Source of the DNA: a virus
Taxonomy: Duplodnaviria > Heunggongvirae > Uroviricota > Caudoviricetes
IMG/VR virus record: IMGVR_UViG_2648501338_000012
Direction: 5' to 3' (one strand)
Length of the DNA: 4,873 bases
The translations under genes and the position numbers were made by a program. Below, piece by piece: positions 1,022-2,068 of this stretch (positions within the stretch are counted from its first letter, which is position 1; every line of letters starts with the position of its first letter). The notes beneath the pieces were generated by a model. It worked only from the letters and a program-made list of their open reading frames with translations, was not told where the DNA came from and did not search any database.

Positions 1022-2068
1022 TCAGTTATCCTTTAATAACCTATACAGTTTTGTAGGGGTACATCCTGAGGATATTGTTAAGTTCGTAGCACGCCTTTTC
1101 CGCCCATCATCGTATAAACGAAAACCAGTAGTAGACGAATTTTCTGCGTCAAAAACTATAGACAGTATAGCGTCCCCAGACTTTTTTTGCCATTCGCATG
1201 TGCCGTTAGTTGGTTTCGTCATCTGTAGACGCCAGTCAAGAACGCCATCACTTATAGCTGAGAGATCGTTTAGTACATCTAGTACGGATTGATATCTTTC
1301 ATTTGGATCTACATGAATGCATTTGTTCACTATTGTTATTAATTTTTTATGTATATGGGGAGGATACTCTTTTAATGGATAGCAGCCATTAATTATCGAC
1401 TCTCTGAGTTGTTCAATCGTGCTAAATGCAGATCTTTCTCTTTCAAAATTATCATGTCCAACACACATTCTATATATGGTTAATCCTGCCTGATATATGT
1501 CATATGTGAAATTATAATCATTTGTTGATAAAGAAAAATATTCCGGTGGCACATGAAAATGATATCCAAACTCAGGCGCAGCTCTCGATTCCTCATTGAC
1601 TAACTGAGATAATCCAAAGTCAGATAGCATGGCCTCATTTCTGTTTGATATCATAATGTTATTAGGTTTTATATCAAAATGCATAAGACCTTTTGAGTGT
1701 ATATGATAAAGTCCACTTAAAAATTGAATGGAATACCGTATTATCTCCCTGCTTGTAAGATTATTTTTTTTCATTAATTGGTTTAGCGAACCATTATGAT
1801 AAAATGGCATGGCTATATAGATATTGCTCTCACATTGAGCAGCATACTGAACTTGCACAATATTTGGATGTGCATGTTTATAGAGAAGCCTTGCTTCATT
1901 AAAGTAGTCGTCGTGGTTAGTGTTTTCTTTTTTTTCTATTTCTTTAATCACCAAGTCATGAGCTAGGTGTCTGTCATGAGCCAGATATACTTTTGAAAAA
2001 CAACCCTGTTCTTCTAGATCACTAATCCATTCGAATTCTACATCAGCTCTTTTGTATGGAGTTAGCAT
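1022..2068 (-). CDS. Eukaryotic-like (Hanks-type) Ser/Thr protein kinase with about 85-aa C-terminal extension; resembles prophage Stk-type kinases encoded next to cI
   Basis: 348-aa ORF with the expected kinase motifs in order: Gly-rich loop QGCFSKV (21-27), VIK lysine (K42), alphaC Glu (E58), catalytic loop HFDIKPNN (130-137, the Ser/Thr-type D-x-K-P-x-N), DFG (150-152), PPEY activation-segment end (174-177), DIYQAG (190-195), HVDPNER (252-258). GGAGG SD 7 nt upstream of the ATG. About one-third GC in sampled lines versus about half in cI. Confidence 0.85.
   Translation of the reverse strand: MLTPYKRADVEFEWISDLEEQGCFSKVYLAHDRHLAHDLVIKEIEKKENTNHDDYFNEARLLYKHAHPNIVQVQYAAQCESNIYIAMPFYHNGSLNQLMKKNNLTSREIIRYSIQFLSGLYHIHSKGLMHFDIKPNNIMISNRNEAMLSDFGLSQLVNEESRAAPEFGYHFHVPPEYFSLSTNDYNFTYDIYQAGLTIYRMCVGHDNFERERSAFSTIEQLRESIINGCYPLKEYPPHIHKKLITIVNKCIHVDPNERYQSVLDVLNDLSAISDGVLDWRLQMTKPTNGTCEWQKKSGDAILSIVFDAENSSTTGFRLYDDGRKRRATNLTISSGCTPTKLYRLLKDN

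What the first reader, a model, noticed from the sequence alone, without database searches (positions are those of the whole stretch)
1025..1276. Kinase carries an about 85-residue C-terminal extension with no assignable domain
The kinase catalytic core ends near residue 262 (HVDPNERYQ...). The remaining residues, about 265-348, include a basic patch (DDGRKRRATNL) and two Cys-containing segments, and have higher GC than the catalytic domain. In defence kinases such extensions often act as sensor or targeting domains, so this region could determine what triggers or what is phosphorylated.
Basis: partly seen in the sequence, partly recalled or inferred. Interest (0 to 1): 0.5.

Follow-up and report, generated by a model that had tools for sequence, protein, structure and literature searches.

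The report
Unannotated tail domain of Stk kinase
The flagged stretch is a real, compactly folded, about 78-residue C-terminal domain of Stk, the known abortive-infection kinase of Shiga-toxin phage 933W. It has no recognisable relatives outside this kinase family, it is kept (not swapped) in every family member, and the kinase always lies between the same two small neighbour genes.

Summary
Window 1025-1276 (minus strand) encodes residues 265-348 of a 348-aa Hanks-type kinase. That kinase is 100% identical to Stk of Stx phage 933W, a published prophage kinase that aborts HK97 infection.

A profile of the domain searched against 1.84 billion proteins found 80 representatives. All but three weak partial hits in long repeat proteins are C-terminal ends of about 340-365-aa Stk-like kinases or of their fragments. 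The domain is therefore family-specific and conserved, not swapped. It is the fastest-evolving part of the protein (mean pairwise identity 25% against 49% for the core; dN/dS about 0.2-0.4 against 0.06-0.09).

In 86 of 86 loci across several phyla the kinase lies in a fixed three-gene cassette: a 152-aa RNase H-like protein, the kinase, and a basic peptide of about 55 aa.

A sensor or docking role is plausible but untested. The system is already known, the domain is unannotated, and interest is modest.

The parts
1025..1258 (-). Stk C-terminal domain (CTD), residues 271-348. It consists of a conserved L277-D278-W279 linker motif, strands at 290-297, 300-307, 312-319 and 324-326, and a helix at 338-347.
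   Evidence: AF2 full-length model: pLDDT 93-95 over the domain, pTM 0.89. AF2 on the domain alone gives the same topology. No Pfam or PDB match. W279 and W293 are invariant in alignment A1 and 96-97% conserved over 80 species.
1259..2068 (-). Stk Hanks-type kinase core, residues 1-270, ending with helix alphaI at 262-270.
   Evidence: Pfam Pkinase E 2.2e-46 over residues 21-260. Invariant K42, E58, D132, K134, N137, D150-F151-G152 and R258. Structural matches to PDB kinases.
1022..2068 (-). The stk gene with its stop codon. The product is 100% identical to 933W Stk (NP_049482).
   Evidence: P0001, 100% identity and coverage.
2062..2523 (-). Upstream cassette gene of 153 aa, a remote RNase H-like / RuvC-like protein. 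It overlaps the stk start by 7 nt.
   Evidence: Present directly upstream of the kinase in 86 of 86 loci. It is 37-41% identical between E. coli, Pseudomonas and Elizabethkingia. The RuvC Pfam match is below threshold.
855..1019 (-). Downstream cassette gene encoding a 54-aa basic peptide (pI 10.0). It starts 2 nt after the stk stop codon.
   Evidence: A same-strand ORF of 49-80 aa starts close to the kinase stop in 86 of 86 loci: within 12 nt in most, and with a called offset of at most 55 nt in the rest. The peptides share N-terminal [YL]x[TS]R[AS] and C-terminal G[HY][YF][IV] motifs. It matches PHROG 4063.
835..856 (-). Intrinsic terminator (tM of 933W) that ends the cI-DUF3024-partner-stk-orf54 lysogenic transcript.
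   Evidence: Terminator scan. It is annotated as tM in NC_000924.
829..2584 (.). Extent of the mobile three-gene cassette. This is the block shared at 96.9% identity with an unrelated lambdoid prophage, where it sits behind a different repressor.
   Evidence: blastn of the window against L088 (E. coli strain 0-4) aligns only 829-2584.

Best explanation
The region encodes a family-specific accessory domain of Stk, the 933W prophage kinase that triggers abortive infection.

Shown here:
- It is an autonomous fold of about 78 residues: a beta-meander of 4-5 strands capped by a C-terminal helix.
- It is joined to the kinase C-lobe through a nearly invariant Leu-Asp-Trp motif.
- It occurs only at the C-terminus of Stk-type kinases and is retained in every member examined.
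- It evolves about twice as fast as the catalytic core but remains under purifying selection.
- The kinase always lies in a three-gene cassette: a 152-aa RNase H-like protein, the kinase, and a basic peptide of about 55 aa. In lambdoid prophages this cassette rides on the repressor (pRM) transcript.

Inferred:
- The domain is a protein-protein interaction and regulatory module fixed against the C-lobe.
- It helps hold the constitutively expressed kinase inactive in the lysogen.
- It provides the docking surface through which the activating signal reaches the catalytic domain. That signal could be the infecting phage's trigger protein, one or both cassette partners, or both.
- Docking then releases kinase activity, followed by phosphorylation of cellular proteins and death of the infected cell.
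For: Identity of the kinase: the window is 99.8% identical to the 933W immunity region and the protein is 100% identical to Stk.

Discrete fold: the full-length AF2 model has pTM 0.89 and CTD pLDDT 93-95. The domain folds the same way on its own.

Packing on the kinase lobe (inference): residues 271-280, which carry the LDW motif, have pLDDT 94 in the full-length model but 68 when the domain is modelled alone.

Family-specific: only 80 representatives in 1.84 billion proteins match the CTD profile. All but three weak partial hits in long repeat proteins are C-termini of Stk-like kinases or their fragments.

Retained: the CTD is detected in 85 of 86 loci from alpha-, beta- and gamma-Proteobacteria, Bacteroidota, Ignavibacteria and a cyanobacterium.

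Specificity-like evolution: mean pairwise identity is 0.25 for the CTD, 0.49 for the core and 0.44 for the partner. For close pairs, dN/dS is 0.17-0.41 in the CTD against 0.06-0.09 in the core.

Fold neighbours are mostly protein-binding modules: RWD domains, the toxin-immunity proteins TriTu and CdiI, PsiB, and p32/Mam33.

Obligate partners: the partner gene is upstream and the small ORF downstream in 86 of 86 loci. The cassette moves as a unit, with boundaries at 829-2584.
Against: - No result here shows any binding partner or regulatory effect of the domain.
- Distance-matrix correlations give no specific co-evolution signal. The CTD-partner partial correlation is 0.42 against 0.50 for core-partner. 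The CTD-peptide partial correlation is 0.27 against 0.53 for core-peptide.
- The primary Stk papers (Tyler & Friedman 2004; Friedman et al. 2011) are not in the held library. I could not check whether they already tested truncations, or whether stk alone is sufficient for exclusion.
Confidence: 0.5

Rival explanations
1. The domain is a purely structural cap of the kinase C-lobe. It would be needed for folding, stability or oligomerisation of this divergent kinase and would play no part in sensing or specificity.
For: The strictly conserved LDW motif and W293 look like core or interface residues. High pTM implies a rigid two-domain unit. The domain is never lost or exchanged. There is no specific co-evolution signal with the partners.
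Against: A pure scaffold would be expected to evolve about as slowly as the core. Instead it shows half the pairwise identity and 3-4 times higher dN/dS. Most Hanks kinases are stable without any such domain.
Confidence: 0.22
2. The domain is a substrate-targeting module. It would recruit the proteins that Stk phosphorylates, or place the kinase on a cellular structure, and would not receive the activating signal.
For: C-terminal accessory domains commonly target eukaryotic-type kinases (established knowledge, for example KA1 or PASTA domains). The fold class is typical of protein-binding modules. The partly conserved G322/R325/R326 patch could contact an acidic or phosphorylated ligand.
Against: Host substrates conserved across phyla would predict a slowly evolving binding surface, yet the CTD is the most variable part. 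Net charge is not conserved across the family (pI 5.0-9.6 between the 10th and 90th percentiles).
Confidence: 0.15
3. The basic patch makes the domain a nucleic-acid-binding module. It would work with the RNase H-like partner to sense phage DNA or RNA.
For: The window's CTD is basic (pI 9.1) and carries RKRR. The neighbouring gene belongs remotely to the RNase H-like / Holliday-junction-resolvase group.
Confidence: 0.06
4. The tail is a recently acquired or recombined segment (a swapped module), as its higher GC content might suggest.
For: GC is 42.1% in the tail against 33.3% in the rest of the gene.
Against: The domain is present in the whole family across phyla. CTD and core divergence are correlated (r = 0.80). 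Substitutions between E. coli alleles are evenly distributed, and the only homology boundaries lie outside the three genes at 829 and 2584. Much of the GC shift is at codon position 2, which reflects amino-acid composition.
Confidence: 0.03

Closest known systems
Stk of Shiga-toxin phage 933W (NP_049482; Tyler & Friedman 2004; Friedman et al. 2011)
   Same: It is the same protein, with 100% identity and the same position between cI and N on the pRM transcript. The reported function is an abortive-infection kinase activated by HK97 infection.
   Different: Nothing differs at sequence level. The papers I could read do not describe the C-terminal domain or the conserved flanking genes.
PD-T4-6 (single-gene Ser/Thr-kinase defence system of E. 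coli; PADLOC models)
   Same: It has a Hanks-type kinase core. Many PD-T4-6 HMMs match Stk residues of about 20-276 (best E 1e-37). Both are mobile-element-borne defence kinases.
   Different: The matches stop at the end of the kinase core, and none covers the CTD. Stk sits in an invariant three-gene cassette, whereas PD-T4-6 is filed as a single gene.
MADS system kinase MAD6 and BREX PglW (defence-system kinases with large extra domains)
   Same: MAD6 gives the best PADLOC hit to the kinase core (E 6.7e-50), and NCBIfam antiphage_MADS6 and PglW also match. All share the principle of a kinase core plus system-specific accessory domains.
   Different: Scores are far below the NCBIfam cut-offs (122 against 460 bits). 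The accessory domains and gene neighbourhoods are different.
Staphylococcal Stk2 abortive-infection kinase (Depardieu et al. 2016; cited in PMC9122126)
   Same: By its title it is a eukaryotic-like Ser/Thr kinase that protects staphylococci against phages. From my own knowledge, not read here, it acts by abortive infection after a phage protein activates it, which is the logic reported for Stk.
   Different: No specific sequence relationship beyond the kinase fold was tested here. Its accessory regions and host phylum differ.
RWD domains (Kre28/Knl1, FANCL, RNF25) and small toxin-immunity proteins (TriTu, CdiI)
Lambda RexAB (exclusion genes co-transcribed with cI)
   Same: It occupies the same genomic niche and follows the same logic: accessory genes on the repressor transcript, expressed in the lysogen, that abort superinfecting phage (PMC3564112).
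   Different: The proteins and mechanism are unrelated.

Membership tests
933W Stk (prophage abortive-infection kinase) | Sequence identity to NP_049482 / the 933W stk gene | tested here: met
   100% protein identity and coverage (P0001). The DNA is 99.8-100% identical to NC_000924.
933W Stk (prophage abortive-infection kinase) | Location downstream of cI on the pRM lysogenic transcript, ending at terminator tM | tested here: met
   Gene order is cI, DUF3024, partner, stk, orf54, terminator, all on the minus strand. Co-transcription with cI is stated in PMC3564112 and PMC3430580.
933W Stk (prophage abortive-infection kinase) | HK97-triggered tyrosine phosphorylation and exclusion | not testable with these tools
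   Known only from the literature.
Hanks-type protein kinase (Pfam PF00069) | Score above the gathering threshold and the catalytic motifs (VAIK Lys, alphaC Glu, HxDxKxxN, DFG, subdomain XI Arg) | tested here: met
   158.8 bits against a cut-off of 31.7. K42, E58, D132/K134/N137, D150-F151-G152 and R258 are invariant in 40 homologues.
PD-T4-6 defence kinase | HMM match over the whole protein | tested here: inconclusive
   The best model matches Stk 20-273 to profile positions 18-273 of 292 (E 1e-37). The longer PD-T4-6 models match only their kinase parts, and none covers the CTD.
PD-T4-6 defence kinase | Single-gene system | tested here: not met
   The kinase is flanked by the same two genes in 86 of 86 loci.
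KA1 / AMPK alpha C-terminal domain (kinase-associated domain) | Structural match of the CTD itself to KA1 or the AMPK alpha-CTD | tested here: not met
RWD domain | Significant structural or sequence-profile similarity | tested here: inconclusive
RuvC Holliday-junction resolvase (database label of the upstream gene) | Pfam RuvC above threshold, with the catalytic acidic residues including the first-strand Asp | tested here: not met
   14.2 bits against a cut-off of 22.2. Only 7 of 31 members match, and all weakly. The first-strand position is an invariant Arg (R7), while E68 and E140 are conserved. There is no PDB sequence hit.

The most novel reading that the evidence does not exclude
The three genes at 829-2584 may form one widespread, mobile and so far unnamed anti-phage system. 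They are a 152-aa RNase H-like protein, Stk with its private C-terminal domain, and a basic peptide of about 55 aa. On this reading Stk is not a stand-alone kinase. Its CTD would be the hub that couples a sensor or inhibitor pair to the kinase, for example the basic peptide acting as a pseudosubstrate or antitoxin and the RNase H-like protein acting as the sensor. The CTD would then be a new kinase-regulatory domain family, and the published single-gene picture of Stk would be incomplete.
Probability: 0.3. Interest if true: 0.6.

Novelty: already known. Interest (0 to 1): 0.33.

Why it matters
Stk is one of the earliest examples of a prophage kinase that kills its own host when another phage infects. 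The papers I could read do not say how it is kept silent or how it recognises the invader.

This work defines the only non-catalytic part of the protein as a discrete domain with clear boundaries (residues 271-348) and a short list of invariant residues: L277, D278, W279, W293, the conserved Cys (C336), and G322/R326. It also shows that two neighbouring genes always accompany the kinase. Together these give a concrete set of truncation, point-mutant, chimera and co-expression experiments.

The cassette is present in about 4% of complete E. coli genomes, largely Shiga-toxin-producing lineages, and in many other phyla. It is therefore a common component of prophage-borne immunity.

Tried and rejected
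1. Sequence-based domain assignment of the tail found nothing. I tried Pfam at E <= 10, NCBIfam, PADLOC and a PDB profile search.

2. KA1 / AMPK alpha-CTD lead. Foldseek of the full-length model aligned AMPK alpha chains across both domains. Searches with the CTD alone did not recover them, so I rejected this as an alignment-extension artefact.

3. Swapped or recently acquired module, as suggested by GC. Rejected.

4. Co-evolution (mirror-tree style partial correlations) between the CTD and the partner or the small peptide. There was no specific signal, so this is uninformative rather than negative.

5. Search for divergent stk alleles in phage genomes, to look for recombination breakpoints. 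All 39 phage records are at least 99.9% identical. E. coli genomes hold only alleles of at least 97.6% identity.

6. The afdb50 fold library was unavailable.

7. The primary Stk papers could not be retrieved.

8. Rfam scan of the window found no RNA family. There is no ORF of 40 aa or more on the plus strand within 1025-1276.

Full report
WHAT THE WINDOW IS.
The window is the immunity region of a 933W-type Shiga-toxin prophage. Positions 99-4796 are 99.8% identical to phage 933W (NC_000924 9181-13878). On the minus strand the gene order is N, a 54-aa ORF (855-1019), stk (1022-2068), a 153-aa ORF (2062-2523), a DUF3024 gene (2591-2932) and cI (2993-3700). On the plus strand lie cro, cII and O. 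The 348-aa kinase is 100% identical to Stk. The papers I could read say that Stk is a eukaryote-like tyrosine kinase co-transcribed with cI from pRM. They report little or no activity in uninfected cells, and activation by HK97 infection that aborts the infection (PMC3681748; PMC3564112; PMC6356687; PMC3430580). The primary papers (Tyler & Friedman 2004; Friedman et al. 2011) are not in the held library.

CHECK OF THE OBSERVATION.
Positions 1025-1276 are the last 84 codons of stk, residues 265-348. Pfam Pkinase covers residues 21-260. Solved kinases align to residue 272 at most. The invariant subdomain-XI Arg is R258. AF2 puts the last canonical helix (alphaI) at 262-270. The true extension is therefore residues 271-348, or window 1025-1258. 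No Pfam, NCBIfam, PADLOC or PDB sequence profile covers it. Only the phage-specific PHROG 2361, labelled 'serine-threonine kinase', spans it. The basic patch D320-L330 and the cysteines C291 and C336 are present. The GC difference is real: 42.1% against 33.3%, above any 252-nt window in the rest of stk plus the upstream gene. It lies largely at codon positions 2 and 3.

WHAT THE REGION IS.

CONSERVED OR SWAPPED?
Conserved. Of the 120 best homologues, essentially all are 337-353 aa long, and most cover at least 90% of the query down to about 40% identity; some drop to about 80-87% where the tail has diverged. In the alignment the tail keeps W279 and W293 invariant and L277/D278 nearly so. A profile of the tail was searched exhaustively against 1.84 billion representative proteins. 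It found only 80 hits at E <= 0.001. All are C-terminal ends of kinases of about 340-365 aa or of obvious fragments of them, apart from three weak partial hits in long repeat proteins. In 86 genomic loci (80 species from the genome-collection scan plus six places from two earlier look-ups: alpha-, beta- and gamma-Proteobacteria, Bacteroidota, Ignavibacteria and a cyanobacterium), 85 kinases have a detectable CTD. The 86th, L051, has the right length but has diverged below threshold. CTD and core divergence are correlated (r = 0.80). The CTD is much more variable, however: mean pairwise identity is 0.25 for the CTD, 0.49 for the core and 0.44 for the upstream partner. Among close pairs, dN/dS is 0.17-0.41 in the CTD against 0.06-0.09 in the core. 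That is purifying selection, 3-4 times relaxed. The conserved positions are L277, D278 and W279 (90-96%), W293 (97%), the Cys column (86%), L345 (75%), G322 (66%) and R326 (65%). C336 aligns to that Cys column in alignment A1, although the 80-sequence alignment placed I332 there. Net charge of the CTD is not conserved, with pI 5.0-9.6 between the 10th and 90th percentiles. This argues against a conserved nucleic-acid-binding surface.

THE SURROUNDINGS CHANGE THE PICTURE.
In all 86 loci the kinase is immediately preceded by a homologue of the window's 153-aa gene. The two genes overlap by 1, 4 or 8 nt, or are separated by a gap of at most 12 nt. The protein is 37-41% identical between E. coli, Pseudomonas and Elizabethkingia. 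In all 86 loci a same-strand ORF of 49-80 aa also starts close to the kinase stop codon, within 12 nt in most loci and with a called offset of at most 55 nt in the rest. These peptides are very basic (median pI 10.1). They share a loose N-terminal [YL]x[TS]R[AS] motif and a C-terminal G[HY][YF][IV] motif, to which the window's orf54 aligns. The cassette ends at the terminator at 835-856 (annotated as tM). In E. coli strain 0-4 the same three genes sit behind a different repressor in a different lambdoid prophage. The homology is 96.9% identical and spans exactly window 829-2584, with no DUF3024 gene. The three genes therefore move as one unit. The homologous loci whose neighbours I inspected lie beside other defence or mobility genes: Abi_2, an LlaJI-type restriction system, and integrases. 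The cassette occurs in 225 of 5,426 complete E. coli genomes and in 39 phage records, all Stx or closely related phages.

HOW IT MOST LIKELY WORKS.
Shown: the CTD is a private, conserved, rapidly diverging fold joined to the kinase C-lobe, within a fixed three-gene operon that is expressed in the lysogen.
From the literature: the kinase is silent until HK97 infects, and it then causes abortive infection.
Inferred: the CTD is the regulatory and docking module. Through it, the phage trigger, the two cassette proteins, or both, control the catalytic domain. I put about 0.5 on this.
Rivals: a purely structural cap (0.22), a substrate-targeting domain (0.15), a nucleic-acid-binding module (0.06) and a recently swapped module (0.03, effectively refuted).
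Mirror-tree style partial correlations gave no specific CTD-partner or CTD-peptide signal, so the binding partner remains open.

COMPARISON WITH KNOWN SYSTEMS.
This is Stk itself, so the system is already known. PADLOC's PD-T4-6 and MAD6 kinase models match only the catalytic core, and the single-gene definition of PD-T4-6 does not fit the three-gene cassette. The 'RuvC-like Holliday junction resolvase' label of the upstream gene is not supported as a membership call. Its Pfam RuvC score is below threshold. It has an invariant Arg where RuvC has its first catalytic Asp. It has no PDB sequence hit. It is at most a remote RNase H-like protein. UniRef names some of its homologues DUF3010, and the literature places DUF3010 in the RNase H-like superfamily (PMC3985635).

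VERDICT.
Novelty is low for the system. The unannotated domain family and the invariant three-gene cassette are modest but useful additions. Interest is 0.33.

Noticed in passing
window 2062-2523 (-): The 153-aa gene overlapping the stk start lies directly upstream of the kinase in 86 of 86 loci across phyla. Databases label it 'RuvC-like Holliday junction resolvase', but it scores below the Pfam RuvC threshold. It has an invariant Arg (R7) where RuvC has its first catalytic Asp, and it conserves E68, E82, E87 and E140. The label looks like over-annotation.
   Followed up: partly
window 855-1019 (-): A 54-aa basic ORF (pI 10) starts 2 nt after the stk stop codon. An equivalent 49-80-aa basic ORF follows the kinase in 86 of 86 loci. 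These peptides share a loose [YL]x[TS]R[AS] motif and a C-terminal G[HY][YF][IV] motif. It may be a third component, such as an inhibitor or pseudosubstrate.
   Followed up: partly
window 829-2584: Exactly this block (terminator, orf54, stk, partner and about 60 nt upstream) recurs at 96.9% identity behind a different repressor in a different lambdoid prophage of E. coli strain 0-4 (L088). The three genes therefore form a mobile moron cassette.
   Followed up: yes
window 72-99 and 4788-4815; ends 1-98 and 4797-4873: The 933W-like segment is bracketed by IS629-type terminal inverted repeats (TGAACCGCCCCGGG...). An IS orfA start (MTKNTRFSP) lies at 4845. The N ORF is cut to 90 aa (127 aa in 933W) and O to 121 aa (about 312 aa). 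The prophage therefore looks defective, while the cI-stk lysogenic operon is intact.
   Followed up: partly
window 2591-2932 (-): The DUF3024 gene between cI and the cassette matches the PADLOC candidate defence family PDC-S43 (E 5e-42). It is absent from the other prophage that carries the cassette (L088), so it is a separate module.
   Followed up: no
window 2575-2589 and 2946-2960: An exact 15-nt direct repeat (CCAAACGTCTCTTCA) flanks the DUF3024 gene. A diverged copy (CCCAAATGTCTAATCAGGC) lies at the repressor-cassette junction in L088. It looks like a module junction at which the DUF3024 gene was inserted or lost.
   Followed up: partly
L002-L007 (Pseudomonas, Elizabethkingia): Homologous cassettes lie next to other defence or mobility genes: an Abi_2 protein, an LlaJI-type restriction system with an AAA_5 ATPase, ArdA, integrases and recombinases. 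This is consistent with a defence-island location.
   Followed up: no
Pseudomonas loci L002, L013-L020, CTD-coding region: Synonymous divergence in the CTD-coding part is lower than in the core (for example dS 0.15-0.30 against 0.43-0.50), although dN is higher. Overlap with the start of the downstream small ORF (29 nt) may contribute. Otherwise this is unexplained.
   Followed up: no
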